From the sequence record OR062946.1: a DNA stretch of 64,000 nt, one strand, 5' to 3'. The position numbers and the translations under genes are program-made. Position 1 is the first letter of the stretch, and every line of letters starts with the position of its first letter. The notes beneath the pieces were generated by a model. That model made no database searches. It was not told where the DNA came from and was given only the letters and a program-made list of their open reading frames with translations. This document shows positions 127 through 16,608 of the stretch, piece after piece. This stretch comes from Escherichia phage 310Ecol104PP.

Positions 127-644
127 TAATAACCTCGGTCTTGACGAGCGAAGTTTTCAGCATTTTTCAGATAATAAAGTTTAAAGATTTCTTCAGCTGA
201 CATTCCAAGAGCAATGAATTTATTCATGAAAAAGTGAAATTGATCAATCAGTTCAAATTTAATTTCAAGTTGATCTTCAGGAGATAAGTCTTGAATTTTC
301 TTGGATTGCATTTCAGAATAACGTTTCTTCCAAGGTTTCCATACGGCAGAAGCTTCTTTTTCACCATTACTCATACCACCAAGAGAAGTATATAGCTCGC
401 GAGTTTCATCTGCGATATAATCGTCTTGGTTTCGCAACCAAGCAAGAACTTCTCCTGCAGTTTCAAGTGAATCGGGATGACGATTTGTTTCTGGTTTATC
501 ATTAGCCAAACGAATCTGTAAATGCCGCTGCATATCAAGCATAACCTGCAATGGGTCAATACTGTGCATAATATACTCAGCATATGCACGATTTGCTTTA
601 TCAACACCTTCGATCAAATGAGCACATTCATTAAAGTGAGCCAT
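126..644 (-). CDS. 56: dCTP pyrophosphatase (dCTPase), T4 gp56-like
   Basis: ORF 126..737; probable start ATG at 644 (MAHFNECAHLIEG) after AAAGGA; about 172 aa; directly downstream of primase as in T4. Confidence 0.8.
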   Translation of the reverse strand: MAHFNECAHLIEGVDKANRAYAEYIMHSIDPLQVMLDMQRHLQIRLANDKPETNRHPDSLETAGEVLAWLRNQDDYIADETRELYTSLGGMSNGEKEASAVWKPWKKRYSEMQSKKIQDLSPEDQLEIKFELIDQFHFFMNKFIALGMSAEEIFKLYYLKNAENFARQDRGY

Positions 645-912
645 TATTTTTCCTTTCAATTCATGGGTTAGTAGATTAATTATACAATAAATATATAAAG
701 CAATAAGGAGGACATATGGTACAAAAATTAATGGCACTTGTTAATGCCATAAAAGGTAATAAGAAACGTATAGCTTTTACTATTTCTGCTATGGTAGGAA
801 TTTTACTCTGGAACTTTATTTTATCACCTGTTGCAATTGCACATGGTATTAATATTCCAGTAGTTACTCTTGATACATTCGTAGATTTAGCATTTGCTTT
901 AGTTGGGTTAAT

Positions 913-1941
913 TTAAATCTTAGCATATTTAGATAGCCGCATTTTAGCCATCAACCCCTGGGCAATATTATTTTTCATATATTCCATAATTTGTTCAGGG
1001 GTTGCACCTTCCTTTCTAATCATATCATTAACATCTTTTGATTTCCAGGGAGATTTATCCCAAAACATAACCCTTTCTCCTGCATCAACTAATTTAGTCA
1101 TTCGCTTAATAGTGTCAGGATGACGAGGTTCATTATCTAAAACCCACACTCGTCTATCTTTAAATGGAACAACTTCTAGGTCTAATTGACCACCCGTAAT
1201 AGCTATACCATTTTCAATAAAAAGTGAATCTATAGGTCCTTCTAGAACATATACATCACCATCTTTAACTCGTTCGACTCCATAGATTTTTGTTGCTTCA
1301 GGATAAGCTTTGATAGTGATATATTTTTGGGGAGCATCTTTCTTTAATGCACGTCCTTGAAAAGACTCAGCTTTTCCATTAGCATTATAAATTGGAATAA
1401 CAAGACGAGGCTCAGGTATTTCCTTTTTATATGTTCCCGGTGCTATGCTATTAACTAATTTAGGCCATTCAGTTGTAAACCAAAGATATTTCCATTTATC
1501 CTTTGGAATACAACGAGCTTTTACATATTTTATAATTGGATGGTCTTCCGCCAGTTTATCTAATCTAACACATGACGGAAGAGATTTAATTATTTTCTTC
1601 TCAGGTTGTTTAGGAAGTTCTTTAGGTTTTTCTACTGGACGACTTTTACCTTTTTCTTTTCTTATTTCAAAGATATACTCACGATATAAATCAGGTTCAA
1701 ACTCCTTTAAATATATTCCGATTGGTGCATGATAGTTACAGTTATAACAATGAATATTTCCTTCATTATTATCACCATAATACCATCCACGAGCTTTATT
1801 CTGGTCGGTTTTTGAATCTCCACAAACAGGGCATCTAAACCGCAATTTAAAAGTTGAACTATTATTTACTTGTGTGAATTTAGGTAAATGAGCCAATGCA
1901 CGATATGCAAACTCATTATCAATCCAAGGTATTGATGACAT
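913..1941 (-). CDS. 61: DNA primase gp61
   Basis: 342 aa; MSSIPWIDNEFAYRALAHL, zinc-ribbon CPVCGDSKTDQNKARGWYY...CYNCNYH; matches recalled T4 gp61. Confidence 0.95.
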   Translation of the reverse strand: MSSIPWIDNEFAYRALAHLPKFTQVNNSSTFKLRFRCPVCGDSKTDQNKARGWYYGDNNEGNIHCYNCNYHAPIGIYLKEFEPDLYREYIFEIRKEKGKSRPVEKPKELPKQPEKKIIKSLPSCVRLDKLAEDHPIIKYVKARCIPKDKWKYLWFTTEWPKLVNSIAPGTYKKEIPEPRLVIPIYNANGKAESFQGRALKKDAPQKYITIKAYPEATKIYGVERVKDGDVYVLEGPIDSLFIENGIAITGGQLDLEVVPFKDRRVWVLDNEPRHPDTIKRMTKLVDAGERVMFWDKSPWKSKDVNDMIRKEGATPEQIMEYMKNNIAQGLMAKMRLSKYAKI

Positions 1942-1943
1942 TT

Positions 1944-2108
1944 TTACTCTTCTTTTTCTTTAGATTCCTCTTTTTTCTTTTTAGGAATCTGCTCAGGACC
2001 TTTATTTACTACAGCGCCCGACGTTGTTCCAGTAGAGATATTTTCAGGATTACCACCTGAATCTCCAGCTACCATATCTTCTTTAATAAATTCTTTATAT
2101 GTTTTCAT
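1944..2108 (-). CDS. small protein (T4 61.1 position) with capsid-targeting-like N-terminus
   Basis: 54 aa own translation MKTYKEFIKEDMVAGDSGGNPENISTGTTSGAVVNKGPEQIPKKKKEESKEKEE; not in ORF track (<60 aa). Confidence 0.55.
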   Translation of the reverse strand: MKTYKEFIKEDMVAGDSGGNPENISTGTTSGAVVNKGPEQIPKKKKEESKEKEE

Positions 2109-2154
2109 ATTAACCTCTATTCATAAAAGCATTAAAAATTTGGTCATCAATAGA
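2106..2154. repeat. direct repeat copy A (about 49 nt) at gene junction
   Basis: catattaaCctctattcataaaagcattaaaaatttggtcatcaataga; repeated at 2464..2512 with 1 mismatch. Confidence 0.9.
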
Positions 2155-2466
2155 TGGAATAGCAACCTTTTCGGCATCATTTAGCAAATCATTAATTTCA
2201 TCAGATAGCATAACACATGTGCCTTTATTTCCTGTAATTGTTACTGCACAATTACGAACGTTTTCTTTATCAAATTTTAGGTTAATATTTTCGTAGTGAA
2301 AATCCTTTAATGCCGAATATATCTTTAAAATGAAATTGTCTTTTACTACAATAAACCCAACCTCACTATTAAAACGTGGTTCATGGAAACTGTAATAAAC
2401 CTTTTCATCTATGAAATCGTATGAAATTTTTTCCATTTTTAAATATGAAAATTCAGAACTATACAT
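2110..2466 (-). CDS. hypothetical protein, 118 aa, shares C-terminal module with next gene
   Basis: ORF track; C-terminus ...SIDDQIFNAFMNRG shared with 2468..3094 product. Confidence 0.55.
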   Translation of the reverse strand: MYSSEFSYLKMEKISYDFIDEKVYYSFHEPRFNSEVGFIVVKDNFILKIYSALKDFHYENINLKFDKENVRNCAVTITGNKGTCVMLSDEINDLLNDAEKVAIPSIDDQIFNAFMNRG

Positions 2467-2512
2467 ATTAATCTCTATTCATAAAAGCATTAAAAATTTG
2501 GTCATCAATAGA
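2464..2512. repeat. direct repeat copy B (about 49 nt)
   Basis: catattaaTctctattcataaaagcattaaaaatttggtcatcaataga; pairs with 2106..2154. Confidence 0.9.
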
Positions 2513-3094
2513 AACATTTACTTTAGACTGTTTTTCAGATGGCAATTCATATCCACATATTACAATTTTATGATCAATATCAAAATACACAGAAGCAATA
2601 TGATTAATGATATTTTCAGTGAAGTCTAAATCAACATCAATATCTTTTTGACCACAGCCCAAAGGATAAATAATGCGAGTAATTCGATTATCTTTAACAA
2701 ATATTCCACCGACATACTCTGTGCTGCGTTTAAAGTCTACACGCCGACGAAATGAAAAATATTCAGGCTCTTTATGAGCTCGGCTCATAGGGCACAACGA
2801 ATAACTAGAATAAGAGATGTCAAATCCTACGCCTTCAATATGAGCCAAAGTGTCATGATTAAACCAATTATAATCGTACGCCAAATCCATTAGATTATAA
2901 TATGTAAAAGGCACCGGATTAACATCATTAGTCGCAAGCATGTAATTAGCAATTGCTATAATTTCATTGTTTTTAACGAATACAAACCGTGATTGATGCG
3001 AATGACCTGGACCCGCGTTTTCACGATTAATGATATAACACTGGGCACCTTTATATTTGTATGTATCTTTGCACTTGTGCATTTGATAGAGCAT
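2468..3094 (-). CDS. hypothetical protein, 208 aa (position and size of T4 61.2)
   Basis: ORF track; between 61.1 and sp; ends ...SIDDQIFNAFMNRD. Confidence 0.6.
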   Translation of the reverse strand: MLYQMHKCKDTYKYKGAQCYIINRENAGPGHSHQSRFVFVKNNEIIAIANYMLATNDVNPVPFTYYNLMDLAYDYNWFNHDTLAHIEGVGFDISYSSYSLCPMSRAHKEPEYFSFRRRVDFKRSTEYVGGIFVKDNRITRIIYPLGCGQKDIDVDLDFTENIINHIASVYFDIDHKIVICGYELPSEKQSKVNVSIDDQIFNAFMNRD

Positions 3095-3387
3095 TATTCA
3101 CCTACCACTTCAGCGATGATATTTTTGTTATTAAAGTTTTTATCGCAATACAGAACATAATTATACTGCATTACACCGCCAGACTTAAGTTGTTTTTGTA
3201 CTTCAGCTTTCATTTCAGGACGATCGCGCTCAACGATATTCATAATATCTGCTTCAATTTGAGTTTCAACCTCAGTCTGATCTGCAGTCATAGACCATTC
3301 ACACAAATCTTTATCATAACCTGCCATAGCAGGCTGAGCAGCACAAGAAGCTAAAGCAAAAATTGTAGCAAAGATAAATTTTTTCAT
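3094..3387 (-). CDS. sp: spackle periplasmic superinfection-exclusion protein
   Basis: 97 aa; signal peptide MKKFIFATIFALASCAAQPAMA; matches recalled T4 Sp; precedes dmd. Confidence 0.85.
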   Translation of the reverse strand: MKKFIFATIFALASCAAQPAMAGYDKDLCEWSMTADQTEVETQIEADIMNIVERDRPEMKAEVQKQLKSGGVMQYNYVLYCDKNFNNKNIIAEVVGE

Positions 3388-3447
3388 GATAATCTCCTCA
3401 GTAGTTTATGTTTATATAGTATCTCAATTTCCAACAAAAGTAAACAG

Positions 3448-3705
3448 CTATTTTAAAACTTTTGCATAATCACATGTTACAAACTGTTTCTCTAGCTTGA
3501 CGATTTTACGAAAGTATCTTTTGCATTGGCGAATCTGCCGCTTCGTAGGGCGAACAGCAAACTTAATAAATTCCACTCGACCAAATGGAGGACTTTCTTC
3601 TGCTGGAATATCTAGCACCAATTCCCACGTATCTGCAATAAGTGCTTTGAATTGTGTATTTTTCCTGACGTTATACGGAGTAGGTTTAAATAAAACAATA
3701 TGCAT
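3448..3705 (-). CDS. small basic protein (T4 61.4 position)
   Basis: track ORF starts at TTG; likely ATG at 3705 (MHIVLFKP) with GAGGA SD, 1 nt after dmd stop; 85 aa. Confidence 0.55.
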   Translation of the reverse strand: MHIVLFKPTPYNVRKNTQFKALIADTWELVLDIPAEESPPFGRVEFIKFAVRPTKRQIRQCKRYFRKIVKLEKQFVTCDYAKVLK

Positions 3706-3706
3706 A

Positions 3707-3889
3707 TTATCCTCGGCAATCCACTTCGCACACTTTCTTGTCATCAATGAAAGCTTTAACTAATGCTTTATTAACTTCAGCATATTGAGTAGTAGCCCAT
3801 TGAACGTCATCTTTCATCATTGTGATTTCTTTAGTAAACATGCTTTCATTCTTAAACCACCCCATAAAAACTACCTTTACCAATTCCAT
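3707..3889 (-). CDS. dmd: Dmd, discriminator of mRNA degradation (antitoxin of RnlA/LsoA)
   Basis: 60 aa MELVKVVFMGWFKNESMFTKEITMMKDDVQW; matches recalled T4 Dmd. Confidence 0.9.
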   Translation of the reverse strand: MELVKVVFMGWFKNESMFTKEITMMKDDVQWATTQYAEVNKALVKAFIDDKKVCEVDCRG

Positions 3890-3918
3890 AACAATCTCCT
3901 CATTTAACCAACAAGACT

Positions 3919-9786: not shown

Positions 9787-12483
9787 TCAGCCAAACAGGA
9801 AGTCTAACGAAGCTTTTTCTTCATAGTCCATACCAGCCGATTCACACATACCAGCAAGCGGTTTAACAAACGATTTTTGGAACAAAGTTGAGTAGTCAAT
9901 CCAAGATAGTACATCAGAACGAATTTCTTTTGGAAGTTCTGTACCCGACGGCCAAGCAATGCACTTATCACCAAATGGATTTCCTTCACGTAATGGAAGA
10001 ACCATTACTTTATTTCCATCCAAAATTGGAGCTACACCCAGACCACTAACAGCTCGACGATAAGTTAGCACACCACGAATATGGAATGGGCATTTAAATC
10101 CTGGCCAACCTTTATCATCATATTTCGCTATATCGTTCGCAGTTTTTACTTCAGCAATAACTTTATAGTCAAGTTGACGATATTCTTTCTCGAAGTTTTT
10201 GTAATATTCTTGGACAGACTCTTCACCTTCCTGAAGAATACGACGAATACTTTCTTCGAGAGCTTCTTGCACTGCTTTTGGTGTTGAACTCTGCTGAGTT
10301 TCCATACCCATGATTTTTAGATGCGGTTCAGCAAATCGTTTATCTTCCATATCATAAACGTTCAGAGCATAACGCTTTTTCGCTTTCCAAAATCCGCCAA
10401 CGCCCTTTGAACCAAGTGGAGGGCAAGAAATAGCTTCACGGTCCATATGCATCAGATGCTCGCGGTTATTCATATAATCACATAACTCACGATATGCAAC
10501 ATCAATCATAGGTTCCATCTTTTTCTTACCGAACTGATTCATGAATTCAACTAAATCGTTCTGCTCTTTGAATCGGTCAAGACCAACTTTTTCAATAACT
10601 TTATCTACACAAACATATACCGAATCAGTATCACCTGCCGCGATGAAATCTTCACCATTAGTTCCACACACTTTATTCAGATATTCATTAATTTTACGAG
10701 CAATCCACTGAATACCGACTTGGCCAAAAATTGTGATAGCAGTAGCATTTCGCAAATCATAGTAACGGAAATGAATATTACCAAGAGCACCATAAAGACT
10801 GTTAATAAGAATTTTACGGTTCAGCTGATTTGTATTAGCAAGTGTAGCTGCTTTTTCACATTCCTCAATCAGACTATTGAGAACAGATTCAGTATAATTC
10901 GATAGCTCATTTAAGAAATCATCACTGAACTTAACATATCGTTCAACTTCTGGTTTAGTTGAACAAGACCCTGCGCCTTTCATAATAATCTTTTTAATAG
11001 CTTCGGCATTCATTTCTTCAGCGAACATTTTCTTTTTCCAGTCTTTACGCTGGAAAAATACTTTAGCGATTTCCTTTGGAATGATACCTTCTTGATGCTT
11101 ATCATACATCCATCCATTCGGAGAACAAGAATATTCATCACTCGGTTTAGGAGCTGTTCCTGCAATATATTCATGAATTGGATGAACTTTAAACTGCCCA
11201 CGAATAGTCTCAGGACTAATGTTAACCTGACGAATAATGCTCGGATACAGAGACGTCAAGTCAAAACTCATAATATATCGACGAGCAATTGGTTTAGGTT
11301 CAAATACAAATGCACCCGGAAAACTTTGTTTAACGTGCGAACCTTGTTGAGGAATAACCTTGTGTTCACCTTTCAATGAGTTAAAAATGATAGCATCCCA
11401 AGTTTTAATAGGACTCATTACACCAGAAAAAGGCATTTTAGCATAATAAGACATACTTAAAACTAGATCAATAAACCCGCGAATTTTATCAATTGCTTGA
11501 ACTGATTCTACGTCAATGATGTTATAACTAATGTATCGTTGATGATTAGTCTCACGAAGTTTATTAATAGGACCGTCGTATGGTAATTTACCTTTTTTGG
11601 TTTCATGTTGAGCAACTGATTCCAAAGAGAATGACGGCAAATTAGTAAAAGCAAATTTCTTGTACAAATCTAAATAATCAAGAATAGATACGCCATCAAT
11701 AGAATAAATTTCTTTGCTACCGTACATATTTTGAATTAGTTTAGATTTTACCCGACCGATTGGAGAGAAACGTTTCATACTGCGTTCGCCCAGAATCATT
11801 TTAACACGATTCATGATATATGGAACGTCAAATCCCTCAATATTCCAACCAGTAAAAATAGCAGGTCGTTTCTGTTCCCAGAGATTAATATATTCCATGA
11901 GCATATCACGCTCATTATCGAATGGCATATAAATTACTCGGTCAAGAATTTCTTGAGGAACTTCATCACCACCTTCACAGTCAAGCTTAGCAGCTAACTT
12001 TGCATCCCATTTTGATACTGAACCGTACATTGAATTCAAAAGATCGAAAACATAAAAACGATCATCAATTGAATCGTAATGAGTGATAGCATCAATTTCA
12101 TATTCTGCTTTCATTGGGTCAGGAAATTTATCACCGGTAACCTCAATGTCACAGTTAGCTACACGAACAAATTTTCGGTCATAAACAATTTCTGAACCAT
12201 ATGTATCACTGATATAAGCGAGTTTAAAGTCGTTCATACCGAGAGCTTCGAGACCGATGTCTTCCATTCGCTTCATCCAATCTCGAGCATCTTTCATTGA
12301 TGGAAATTTTTGAGGAGCACAATTTTTACCATAGATGTCTTTGTATTTTGACTCTTCCTTACAATGTCTAAACATAGTTGGAAGATATTCTACTTCACGG
12401 GTACGTTCCTTTCCGTTTTCATCAATATAACGTTCAACAATGTTATTTCCGACTGTTTCGATAGAGATATAAAATTCTTTCAT
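9787..12483 (-). CDS. 43: DNA polymerase gp43
   Basis: 898 aa; family B polymerase; matches recalled T4 gp43 N-terminus and length. Confidence 0.97.
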   Translation of the reverse strand: MKEFYISIETVGNNIVERYIDENGKERTREVEYLPTMFRHCKEESKYKDIYGKNCAPQKFPSMKDARDWMKRMEDIGLEALGMNDFKLAYISDTYGSEIVYDRKFVRVANCDIEVTGDKFPDPMKAEYEIDAITHYDSIDDRFYVFDLLNSMYGSVSKWDAKLAAKLDCEGGDEVPQEILDRVIYMPFDNERDMLMEYINLWEQKRPAIFTGWNIEGFDVPYIMNRVKMILGERSMKRFSPIGRVKSKLIQNMYGSKEIYSIDGVSILDYLDLYKKFAFTNLPSFSLESVAQHETKKGKLPYDGPINKLRETNHQRYISYNIIDVESVQAIDKIRGFIDLVLSMSYYAKMPFSGVMSPIKTWDAIIFNSLKGEHKVIPQQGSHVKQSFPGAFVFEPKPIARRYIMSFDLTSLYPSIIRQVNISPETIRGQFKVHPIHEYIAGTAPKPSDEYSCSPNGWMYDKHQEGIIPKEIAKVFFQRKDWKKKMFAEEMNAEAIKKIIMKGAGSCSTKPEVERYVKFSDDFLNELSNYTESVLNSLIEECEKAATLANTNQLNRKILINSLYGALGNIHFRYYDLRNATAITIFGQVGIQWIARKINEYLNKVCGTNGEDFIAAGDTDSVYVCVDKVIEKVGLDRFKEQNDLVEFMNQFGKKKMEPMIDVAYRELCDYMNNREHLMHMDREAISCPPLGSKGVGGFWKAKKRYALNVYDMEDKRFAEPHLKIMGMETQQSSTPKAVQEALEESIRRILQEGEESVQEYYKNFEKEYRQLDYKVIAEVKTANDIAKYDDKGWPGFKCPFHIRGVLTYRRAVSGLGVAPILDGNKVMVLPLREGNPFGDKCIAWPSGTELPKEIRSDVLSWIDYSTLFQKSFVKPLAGMCESAGMDYEEKASLDFLFG

Positions 12484-15891: not shown

Positions 15892-16608
15892 ATGAATTAT
15901 AAACTAATTTATGAAAAGCTAATCTCTAATGCTAAATCTCGAAAACTTAATTGCTATACTGAATCTCATCACATTATACCACGCTGTTTAAATGGTAGCG
16001 ATGATGCTTCAAACTTAGTAGATTTAACACCAGAAGAGCACTATGTAGCTCATCAACTTTTAGTAAAAATTTATCCTTCTGAACCAAAATTAGTCTATGC
16101 TGCTAACATGATGACAGTTTCCACAAAATACGCTAAACGCAACAATAAAACTTTCGGTTGGATTCGTCGTAAACTCTGGGAAATAGAAAAGAATAAAGAA
16201 TTCTCCCAGGAGACACGAAAGAAAATGTCTGATGCAGTAGCTAATAAAGCAAGACTAACTTGTCCTCATTGCGGTAAGTCTGGATTAAGCGGGAATATGA
16301 ATCGTTGGCATTTTGATAACTGCCCAAATCACCCTAATCCTAAAGTTAGACCACCAATGTCTAAAGAACACAGAAATAATATCTCAAACGGGCTTAAAGC
16401 AATCGTTCTTGAAGAAACATCCTGCGAATTCTGCGGAATGATAGGCAAGAAATGCGTTATCGCAGCGCATAGAAATTTCTGCAAGAAAAATCCAAATGGA
16501 CGCAAGAAAACTGAAAAGACTGGTACTTGCGTCCATTGTGGTAAAGTTACCACTTTCGGAAATTTATCAAGGTGGCATAATGATAACTGTAAATATAAAC
16601 CTAGCTAA
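15892..16608 (+). CDS. freestanding HNH homing endonuclease with three C-terminal zinc-finger-like repeats
   Basis: 238 aa; HNH motif ESHHIIPRCLNGSDDASNLVDLTPEEHYVAHQ; repeats CPHCG..WHFDNC, CEFCG..HRNFC, CVHCG..WHNDNC; opposite strand to neighbours; 8-nt convergent overlap with gene 46. Confidence 0.8.
   Translation: MNYKLIYEKLISNAKSRKLNCYTESHHIIPRCLNGSDDASNLVDLTPEEHYVAHQLLVKIYPSEPKLVYAANMMTVSTKYAKRNNKTFGWIRRKLWEIEKNKEFSQETRKKMSDAVANKARLTCPHCGKSGLSGNMNRWHFDNCPNHPNPKVRPPMSKEHRNNISNGLKAIVLEETSCEFCGMIGKKCVIAAHRNFCKKNPNGRKKTEKTGTCVHCGKVTTFGNLSRWHNDNCKYKPS

What the first reader, a model, noticed from the sequence alone, without database searches (positions are those of the whole stretch)
2106..3094. 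Duplicated 3' gene module at the 61.2 (anti-DarT factor) locus
Two adjacent genes (118 aa and 208 aa) end with the same 14 residues, SIDDQIFNAFMNR(G/D). The junctions downstream of each share a 49-nt direct repeat with one mismatch (2106..2154 and 2464..2512) that spans the stop codon and the next gene's start. The 208-aa gene sits where T4 gene 61.2 lies, which to my recollection was reported as the anti-DarT factor AdfA. The repeat suggests module shuffling or partial duplication at a counter-defence locus under selection.
Basis: partly seen in the sequence, partly recalled or inferred. Interest (0 to 1): 0.5.

Follow-up and report, generated by a model that had tools for sequence, protein, structure and literature searches.

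The report
Shared tail of tandem AdfA-family genes
Two neighbouring genes of a T4-like phage, the known anti-DarT factor adfA and a half-size relative of it, end in the same conserved 13-residue peptide and gene junction, and this 49-base direct repeat marks exactly where related phages have gained or lost the small gene; it is a tidy but fairly ordinary case of cassette variation in a known counter-defence island.

Summary
A 49-nt direct repeat (2106-2154 / 2464-2512, 48/49 identical, period 358 nt) covers the last 14 codons, the stop codon and the next gene's ATG of two tandem minus-strand genes.

The 208-aa gene is adfA (T4 61.2; Pfam AdfA E=3e-135) and carries the His allele linked to DarT1 neutralisation. 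The 118-aa gene is a diverged one-module relative of AdfA's C-terminal half, by Pfam hit, tail-less similarity, matching predicted secondary structure and Foldseek hits.

The repeat is not a fresh duplication. It is the most conserved element of a small AdfA superfamily, the C-terminal helix DDQIFNAFM(N/K)R. This helix ends three architectures (about 120, 145 and 210 aa), all encoded just downstream of sp in T-even-like phages. The last two codons also hold the Shine-Dalgarno for the next gene.

Closely related phages show all four states: both genes, adfA only (T4, exactly 358 bp shorter), the 118-aa gene only (T2) and neither. The repeat therefore fits a recombination hinge.

The functions of the 118-aa protein and of the tail are untested. 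Modest interest: a new member of a known kind.

The parts
2106..2154 (-). Repeat copy 1: last 14 codons of the 118-aa gene (SIDDQIFNAFMNRG), TAA stop, one base, and the ATG of gene 61.1. The Shine-Dalgarno GAGG lies in the last two codons.
2464..2512 (-). Repeat copy 2: last 14 codons of adfA (SIDDQIFNAFMNRD), TAA stop, one base, and the ATG of the 118-aa gene. The single mismatch turns GGT (G) into GAT (D) and GAGG into GAGA.
2110..2466 (-). 118-aa gene (RB32ORF033c-like, phrog_4122): a one-module AdfA-superfamily protein. Predicted five-strand sheet plus helices, then a disordered linker (102-105) and the tail helix (106-115).
2468..3094 (-). adfA (T4 gene 61.2), 208 aa, predicted as two similar beta-sheet plus helix modules followed by the tail helix (196-205). 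His165 aligns with RB69 AdfA residue 164.
1944..2108 (-). Gene 61.1 (54 aa), downstream neighbour. Its start codon lies inside repeat copy 1.
3094..3387 (-). sp (spackle), the upstream neighbour. Its stop overlaps the adfA start (TAATG). Every tail-bearing gene found lies just downstream of sp.
3448..3705 (-). tifA (61.4), anti-ToxN factor, part of the same anti-toxin island. The 85-aa form starts at MHIVLF.
   Evidence: PMC9391042
3707..3889 (-). dmd, anti-RnlA/LsoA factor, first gene of the island's early transcription unit.
   Evidence: PMC9391042
3919..3947 (-). Best sigma-70-type promoter match upstream of dmd (TTTACA-17-TATAGT with TG). No promoter-like or terminator-like site above background lies between it and gene 61, so the genes are probably co-transcribed.

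Best explanation
The 49-nt repeat is the common 3' end of two tandem paralogues of the AdfA superfamily: adfA itself (two modules, 208 aa) and a one-module relative (118 aa).

It encodes the superfamily's nearly invariant C-terminal amphipathic helix, DDQIFNAFM(N/K)R. It also contains the stop codon and, within the last two codons, the Shine-Dalgarno and ATG of the next gene (TAA-T-ATG).

The helix is kept by purifying selection on the peptide. It is predicted as a separate helix behind a flexible linker, so it is inferred to be a docking or oligomerisation element shared by all family members. In Tequatroviruses the two copies are additionally almost identical at synonymous sites, which suggests recombinational homogenisation or exchange.

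The two copies lie in direct orientation exactly one gene apart. Homologous recombination between them removes or adds precisely the 358-bp cassette while leaving every reading frame and junction intact. This fits the natural polymorphism: both genes, adfA only (T4), 118-aa gene only (T2), neither.

Shown: the repeat, the homologies, the synteny, the four states and the exact 358-bp indel. Inferred: that the repeat itself mediates the indel; that the tail docks onto a partner; and that the 118-aa protein is a toxin-binding counter-defence factor like AdfA.
For: Repeat and coding content.

adfA identity: Pfam AdfA E=3.4e-135; 96% identical to T4 gp61.2 and 67% to RB69 gp61.2; H165 aligns with RB69 R164.

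118-aa protein homologous to the AdfA C-terminal half:
- Pfam AdfA positions 113-211, 34.1 bits against a cut-off of 27.
- With the 14-aa tail removed, BLASTP E=1.6e-4 against Sf21 AdfA, colinear; hhalign P=0.003; Smith-Waterman z=3.4.
- The order of predicted secondary-structure elements in the 118-aa protein matches AdfA residues 98-205.
- The Foldseek/BFVD search with the 118 model hits a 212-aa protein whose length fits AdfA (6e-5) and a 145-aa protein (8e-5).

The tail is the most conserved part. 10 of 14 invariant columns in an alignment of 8 divergent members lie in the tail. It ends the ~145-aa proteins of Dhakavirus-type phages and the 120-125-aa proteins P0026 and P0029. All of these are encoded directly after sp.

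Synonymous variation in the tail exists between genera, and in contig L030 there are 4 synonymous differences between the two tandem tails, so selection acts on the peptide.

Four occupancy states occur among near-identical phages. T4 differs from the window by one 358-bp gap lying within the repeat, and the in-silico repeat deletion aligns ungapped to T4 at 96.2%. In the sample, adfA-only genomes carry the tail ending AGAGGT that 'both' genomes have on the 118-aa gene.

dS between the window and Sf21 jumps at the 61.1/118 junction. T4 is documented to delete and amplify between short homologies in this same island (PMC9391042).

The 118-aa gene is under purifying selection, dN/dS 0.19-0.32, and is present in 298 phage records.
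Against: Nothing here shows recombination at the repeat directly. The T4 state could be ancestral, with the 118-aa cassette inserted later.

The adfA-less states (T2, W143) do not use the 49-nt repeat. They use a shorter junction, TTAGAGGYTARTATG.

In some 'both' genomes the two tails differ at 2-3 positions, so homogenisation is not strict.

The tail's low pLDDT (52-63) could simply reflect shallow alignments.

No function is known for the 118-aa protein. At the position of the DarT1-specificity residue it has Cys, not His. T4 AdfA itself has no DarTG1 phenotype when deleted (PMC11257639, the preprint of PMC11825919).
Confidence: 0.72

Rival explanations
1. Recent partial duplication: the 3' end of adfA was recently copied, or the 118-aa gene arose recently from adfA's 3' half, and the 49 nt are what is still recognisable.
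For: 48/49 nt identity with no synonymous differences in the window. The 118-aa protein aligns colinearly with the AdfA C-terminal half.
Against: Identity drops abruptly to background outside the 49 nt, and the protein bodies are only 27-33% identical. The 118-aa family has a 47%-identical member in a different lineage, where sp is 66% identical, and further 120-125-aa relatives. The same tail ends the ~145-aa family and RB69 AdfA. The split is therefore old.
Confidence: 0.08
2. Gene conversion or chimera: the bodies are old paralogues or even unrelated, and the tail was recently transplanted or homogenised between the two genes within Tequatroviruses. The nucleotide identity would then reflect exchange, not selection.
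For: The tandem tails show 0 synonymous differences in the window and RB33 but 4 in contig L030. Both L030 tails share the N-to-K change. T-even phages recombine at short homologies (PMC9391042).
Against: Tails of orthologues in different Tequatroviruses are just as identical as tails of paralogues within one genome. Some genomes (Sf23, wV7, BCH953P2) keep 3 differences between their two tails. The peptide is invariant even in very divergent proteins with different codons, so selection on the peptide alone explains most of the identity. This is best seen as a contributing process within the main explanation.
Confidence: 0.15
3. Cis-acting nucleic-acid element: the repeat is conserved as an RNA or DNA signal, for example a translational-coupling hairpin that masks the next gene's Shine-Dalgarno, or a mobile regulatory cassette of the promoter-early stem-loop type.
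For: The predicted minimum-energy fold pairs the start of the tail with its AGAG(G/A) end in both copies. The Shine-Dalgarno and ATG of the next gene lie inside the repeat.
Against: Folding energies are ordinary, z = -0.09 and -0.69. Substitutions in RB69- and Bp7-type tails (TCT to TCA or TCTG, AGA to CGA) break these pairs rather than compensate for them. No promoter or terminator signal above background was found. Conservation follows codon positions, and the peptide is invariant where the DNA varies.
Confidence: 0.05

Closest known systems
AdfA (anti-DarT factor A; gp61.2 of RB69/T4; Pfam PF23813)
   Same: The 208-aa gene is an orthologue: full-length Pfam match, same position between sp and 61.1, and His at the position whose R-to-H change lets RB69 AdfA bind and neutralise DarT1 (PMC11825919). 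The 118-aa protein matches the C-terminal half of the same Pfam model above its cut-off and shares the tail and the locus.
   Different: The 118-aa protein has one module instead of two. Outside the tail it is only about 30% identical to AdfA. It has Cys where AdfA has the specificity-determining His/Arg, and it has never been tested. PMC11825919 treats T2 as lacking an adfA homologue although T2 carries this gene.
T4 anti-toxin-antitoxin island (dmd, tifA/61.4, adfA/61.2), with amplification and deletion by recombination at short homologies (Srikant, Guegler and Laub 2022, PMC9391042)
   Same: Same genomic region and the same kind of process: short direct homologies flanking small counter-defence genes, giving gain and loss of whole genes. 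That paper names the other genes of the region as candidate anti-toxins.
   Different: There the homologies were 2-10 bp and the events arose in the laboratory. Here the homology is 49 nt, lies within coding sequence and is conserved, and the events are inferred from natural genomes.
Promoter-early stem-loop (PeSL) cassettes and other modular shuffling in hyperplastic regions of T4-type genomes (Arbiol et al. 2010; recalled from memory, not read here)
   Same: Small non-essential genes bounded by repeated sequences that allow gene-sized units to be swapped between related phages.
   Different: The repeat here is coding sequence plus a ribosome-binding junction. It is not a promoter plus stem-loop, and no promoter or hairpin signal was found.

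Membership tests
AdfA (Pfam PF23813), 208-aa gene | Full-length sequence match above the Pfam gathering score | tested here: met
   448.5 bits against a cut-off of 27, residues 1-207 on profile positions 1-210
AdfA (Pfam PF23813), 208-aa gene | Orthologous position: between sp and 61.1/61, as for T4 and RB69 gene 61.2 | tested here: met
AdfA (Pfam PF23813), 208-aa gene | His at RB69 position 164 (the DarT1-neutralising allele) | tested here: met
   Window H165 aligns with RB69 R164; allele meaning taken from PMC11825919
AdfA (Pfam PF23813), 208-aa gene | Binds DarT1 and relieves DarTG1 defence | not testable with these tools
   Needs a two-hybrid, toxicity-rescue or plaque assay
AdfA (Pfam PF23813), 118-aa gene | Sequence match above the Pfam gathering score | tested here: met
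   34.1 bits against a cut-off of 27, but only to profile positions 113-211. Precomputed PF23813 hits on all five cluster representatives.
AdfA (Pfam PF23813), 118-aa gene | Similarity beyond the shared 14-residue tail | tested here: met
   With tails removed: BLASTP E=1.6e-4 to 0.01, hhalign P=0.003, 7 of 500 shuffles reach the score. Matching order of predicted secondary structure. Foldseek hits to a 212-aa and a 145-aa protein at 6e-5 and 8e-5. The evidence is moderate, not strong.
AdfA (Pfam PF23813), 118-aa gene | Two-module architecture of about 210 aa | tested here: not met
   118 aa, a single module
AdfA (Pfam PF23813), 118-aa gene | His or Arg at the DarT1-specificity position | tested here: not met
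   Cys73 aligns there, and it is conserved as Cys or Ala across the one-module family
AdfA (Pfam PF23813), 118-aa gene | Neutralises a DarT toxin | not testable with these tools
   No experimental data found in the searched literature
PeSL-type mobile regulatory cassette | Repeat consists of an early promoter plus a stem-loop flanking the ORF | tested here: not met
   No promoter or terminator above background in 1800-3400; folding z-scores -0.09 and -0.69

The most novel reading that the evidence does not exclude
The invariant C-terminal helix DDQIFNAFM(N/K)R is a portable docking peptide. It would tether a set of interchangeable, fast-evolving 'head' modules (AdfA, the 118-aa protein, the 145-aa protein) to one common partner, either a phage or host protein or each other. 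The 118-aa protein would then be a second, unrecognised toxin inhibitor, for example against a different DarT variant. T2, described as lacking adfA, would in fact carry a mini-AdfA. A loose resemblance of IFNAF to the clamp-binding C-terminus of RB69 DNA polymerase (LFDMF) raises the untested possibility of tethering at the replisome, where DarT's single-stranded DNA substrate is exposed.
Probability: 0.15. Interest if true: 0.6.

Novelty: new member of a known kind. Interest (0 to 1): 0.3.

Why it matters
AdfA is one of the few known phage inhibitors of the DarTG toxin-antitoxin defence, and its mechanism and specificity are poorly understood. Three points follow from this analysis:

- AdfA appears to be built from two copies of a module that also exists alone, in about 300 sequenced T-even-like phages including T2.
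- All versions share one invariant C-terminal helix.
- The locus switches between four gene contents at a defined hinge.

Together these give concrete, cheap experiments: tail deletion, mini-AdfA assays against DarT panels, and measurement of deletion frequency. They may also explain why the presence of adfA does not correlate with DarTG1 resistance in published phage panels. This refines existing knowledge; it does not open a new class of system.

Tried and rejected
- **RNA structure in the repeat.** Folding energies are not different from shuffles, and substitutions in other genera break the predicted pairs.
- **Promoter or terminator inside the locus.** Nothing above background.
- **Homology of the ~145-aa family body to AdfA by sequence.** Not significant without the tail, E 0.14-0.27, and Pfam hits the tail only. 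Only Foldseek supports a shared fold.
- **Internal duplication in AdfA (N half against C half).** Weak by sequence, E about 0.01 and z 3.5 in the window allele, not significant in RB69. It rests mainly on the repeated predicted secondary-structure pattern in a model with mean pLDDT of only 69.5.
- **MAFFT placement of 118-aa residues 6-19 on AdfA residues 63-76.** Judged spurious because hhalign places them elsewhere.
- **Strict concerted evolution of the two tails.** Rejected, since several genomes keep 2-3 differences.
- **Clean microhomology deletion to explain the adfA-less junctions.** The observed junction GAATAATTAGAGG has an extra T relative to the predicted product.
- **The original AdfA paper (LeRoux et al. 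2022).** It could not be read. Its content is cited only through PMC11257639, PMC11825919 and PMC9391042.
- **Clamp-binding idea.** The window's gp43 ends in SLDFLFG and RB69's in SLFDMFDF. The resemblance to the tail is loose and was not testable.

Full report
**1. The observation**

The window is a T4-like (Tequatrovirus) genome segment whose replication genes run on the minus strand. The gene order in this region is:

- primase gene 61 (913-1941)
- 61.1 (1944-2108)
- a 118-aa ORF (2110-2466)
- a 208-aa ORF (2468-3094)
- sp (3094-3387)
- 61.4/tifA
- dmd
- gene 41

The repeat finder reports one long direct repeat in 1800-3500: 49 nt at 2106-2154 and 2464-2512, 48/49 identical, 358 nt apart. 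The only other direct repeats are chance-level 12-mers. The 49-mer occurs nowhere else in the 64 kb even with three mismatches, and never in shuffled sequence.

On the coding strand the repeat reads TCT ATT GAT GAC CAA ATT TTT AAT GCT TTT ATG AAT AGA G(G/A)T TAA T ATG. That is the last 14 codons (SIDDQIFNAFMNR followed by G or D), the stop, one base and the start codon of the next gene.

**2. What the two genes are**

The 208-aa protein is AdfA:
- It matches Pfam PF23813 (Anti-DarT factor A) end to end, E=3.4e-135.
- It is 96% identical to T4 gp61.2 and 67% identical to RB69 gp61.2.
- It sits where T4 61.2 sits.
- The literature equates 61.2 with adfA and places it in an 'anti-TA island' with dmd and tifA (PMC9391042; PMC11825919).
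- RB69 AdfA has Arg at position 164. R164H makes it bind and neutralise DarT1 (PMC11825919). The window protein has His at the aligned position, H165.

The 118-aa protein (RB32ORF033c-like, phrog_4122) hits the C-terminal half of the same Pfam model (profile positions 113-211) at 34.1 bits, above the 27-bit cut-off. Because the shared tail contributes much of that score, I removed the last 14 residues and retested:
- BLASTP still gives a colinear match to the AdfA C-terminal half, E=1.6e-4 against the Sf21 allele and 0.01 against the window allele.
- hhalign gives P=0.003 at 27% identity over 85 columns.
- Only 7 of 500 shuffles reach the Smith-Waterman score.

AlphaFold models agree with this. 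The 118-aa protein (pLDDT 80.7) is predicted as E7-17, E22-29, E34-42, E45-51, E57-64, H67-78, E83-87, H89-101, a disordered stretch at 102-105, then H106-115. AdfA residues 98-205 show the same order of elements except for the H89-101 equivalent, with offsets of 88-93 residues. AdfA residues 2-88 show the pattern a second time (pLDDT 69.5).

A Foldseek search of viral predicted structures with the 118 model returns:
- a 118-aa relative (44% identity, 7e-11)
- a 157-aa protein of Yersinia phage fPS-65 (1e-5)
- a 212-aa protein whose length fits AdfA (6e-5)
- a 145-aa protein of phage VR25 (8e-5)

Searches against solved structures found nothing convincing. This is consistent with the published statement that AdfA resembles no known family.

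**3. The tail is the family's most conserved element, not a fresh copy**

Scans of viral and metagenomic contigs for the back-translated peptide and a profile search of 1.84 billion representatives show a very small family confined to T-even-like phages. The family has three architectures:
- about 208-216 aa (AdfA)
- about 118-125 aa (one module)
- about 145 aa (phrog_8539)

All end in (S/D/T)(I/V/T)DDQIFNAFM(N/K)(R/K)(G/D). In an alignment of eight divergent one-module sequences and AdfA C-terminal halves, 10 of the 14 invariant columns lie in the tail.

Every member whose context I could read is encoded directly downstream of sp:
- Bp7 gp135
- contig L030, where a 145-type gene is followed by a 122-aa gene that is 47% identical to the window's 118-aa protein
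- P0029 and P0026

Between genera the tail's codons vary at synonymous sites. The two tandem tails of L030 differ at four synonymous positions yet encode the same peptide, and both carry an N-to-K change. Selection therefore acts on the peptide.

The RNA-element alternative fails. The predicted hairpin is no more stable than in shuffled sequence, and substitutions in other genera break its pairs. There is no promoter or terminator signal in the locus.

In both models the tail is a separate helix with low confidence, following a low-confidence stretch that is disordered in the 118-aa model. The linker is the most variable part of the 118-aa family. I infer that the tail is a docking or oligomerisation helix. 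This was not tested.

**4. The repeat as a hinge**

A spread sample of the 873 phage records that match the sp-61.1 interval shows four discrete states in otherwise 95-98% identical sequence:
- full length (157 records with at least 80% coverage)
- 358 bp shorter (adfA only, T4-type)
- 615 bp shorter (118-aa gene only, T2-type)
- 973 bp shorter (neither; W143, KNP5)

These agree with independent counts of 298 records holding the 118-aa gene and 486 holding adfA.

T4 aligns to the window with a single 358-bp gap that falls inside the repeat. Deleting one repeat period in silico gives a product that aligns ungapped to T4 at 96.2%.

In the genomes I sampled, adfA-only phages carry the tail ending AGA GGT, the version that 'both' genomes have on the 118-aa gene. 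In 'both' genomes adfA ends AAA GGT or AGA GAT. This is what a crossover within the repeat would produce, although an insertion history is not excluded.

The adfA-less states use a shorter junction, sp-stop followed by TTAGAGGYTARTATG, which resembles the end of the tail.

Synonymous divergence between the window and Sf21 jumps from 0.12-0.17 in genes 61 and 61.1 to 0.45-0.66 in the 118-aa gene, adfA and sp. This places a recombination breakpoint near the 118/61.1 junction. AdfA alleles are also mosaic: residues 1-57 switch between a T4-like and an RB69-like version (38% identity), while residues 58-108 stay about 96% identical. Laboratory evolution has shown deletions and amplifications between short homologies in this same island (PMC9391042).

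**5. How it most likely works**

Shown here:
- two tandem AdfA-family genes share a conserved C-terminal helix and a TAA-T-ATG junction
- the Shine-Dalgarno (GAGG or GAGA) lies in the last two codons
- the cassette is present or absent in exact register with the repeat

Inferred:
- the genes are co-transcribed from the early promoter upstream of dmd and are translationally coupled
- recombination between the repeats adds or removes the 118-aa gene without damaging its neighbours
- the 118-aa protein is a real gene under purifying but relaxed selection: dN/dS 0.19-0.32, against 0.03-0.05 for genes 61 and 61.1 and 0.11-0.13 for sp
- it binds a toxin or other defence protein through the helix equivalent to the one carrying AdfA His165, where it has a conserved Cys

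The last point is a hypothesis. I give it about 0.3-0.4.

**6. Comparison with what is known, and novelty**

AdfA and the anti-TA island are published. The 118-aa gene is annotated as hypothetical in about 300 genomes and is swept into Pfam's AdfA family by its hits. I found no paper that discusses it. PMC11825919 describes T2 as naturally lacking an adfA homologue, yet T2 carries the 118-aa gene between sp and 61.1.

The following appear to be undescribed but are incremental: the one-module/two-module relationship, the invariant tail shared by three architectures, and the four-state polymorphism at a defined hinge. I rate this a new member of a known kind, with modest interest (0.3).

The most novel reading not excluded is that the tail is a portable docking peptide for a family of interchangeable toxin-binding heads, and that the 118-aa protein is an unrecognised anti-toxin factor (probability about 0.15).

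Noticed in passing
window 640-916: T4 has dam between gene 56 and gene 61. The window has no dam there. It has only a 66-aa plus-strand ORF (716-916) with no Pfam hit, as in Sf21, W143 and T2. I did not check whether dam lies elsewhere in the window.
   Followed up: partly
window 2468-3094 (AdfA residues 1-57 versus 58-108): AdfA alleles in public data are mosaics. The first 57 residues switch between a T4-like and an RB69-like version (38% identity) while residues 58-108 stay about 96% identical. This implies a recombination breakpoint inside the gene.
   Followed up: partly
window 1944-3387 versus L003 (Shigella phage Sf21): Synonymous divergence jumps from 0.12-0.17 (genes 61 and 61.1) to 0.45-0.66 (118-aa gene, adfA, sp). 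The sp-adfA-118 block of Sf21 therefore comes from a more distant lineage than its flank, with the breakpoint near the 118/61.1 junction.
   Followed up: partly
L030 1141-1549 (metagenome contig OBRI01000039.1): A different T-even-like lineage has a 145-type gene followed by a 122-aa one-module gene, both with the tail. The upstream gene again ends in D and the downstream one in G, as in the window, and both tails carry N-to-K. This may be co-variation of the two tails, or a recurrent weakening of the Shine-Dalgarno of the one-module gene.
   Followed up: partly
window 15892-16608 (+): A 238-aa plus-strand ORF inside a run of minus-strand replication genes, with a weak sub-threshold HNH hit (16.7 bits against a cut-off of 21.4). 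It is probably a free-standing homing endonuclease.
   Followed up: no
L024 (phage JoYop) 2117-3030 and L018 (RB69) 3115-3918: The interval between sp and dmd/61.4 is also variable. JoYop has a goF-like gene and two small ORFs there, and RB69 has imm and imm.1. The whole dmd-to-61 stretch behaves as a cassette region.
   Followed up: no
window 9787-12483 (gp43) and L037 8640-8759 (RB69 gp43): The polymerase C-termini are ...KASLDFLFG in the window and ...KKASLFDMFDF in RB69. The AdfA tail core IFNAF loosely resembles the RB69 pattern LFDMF. That these are the clamp-binding peptides is from memory. This is a lead only.
   Followed up: partly
P0028 (102 aa): One database protein begins with AdfA residues 103-130 (MSRAHKEPEYFSFRRRVDFKRSTEYVGG) and continues with unrelated sequence. 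It is probably a chimeric assembly or a frameshifted call.
   Followed up: no
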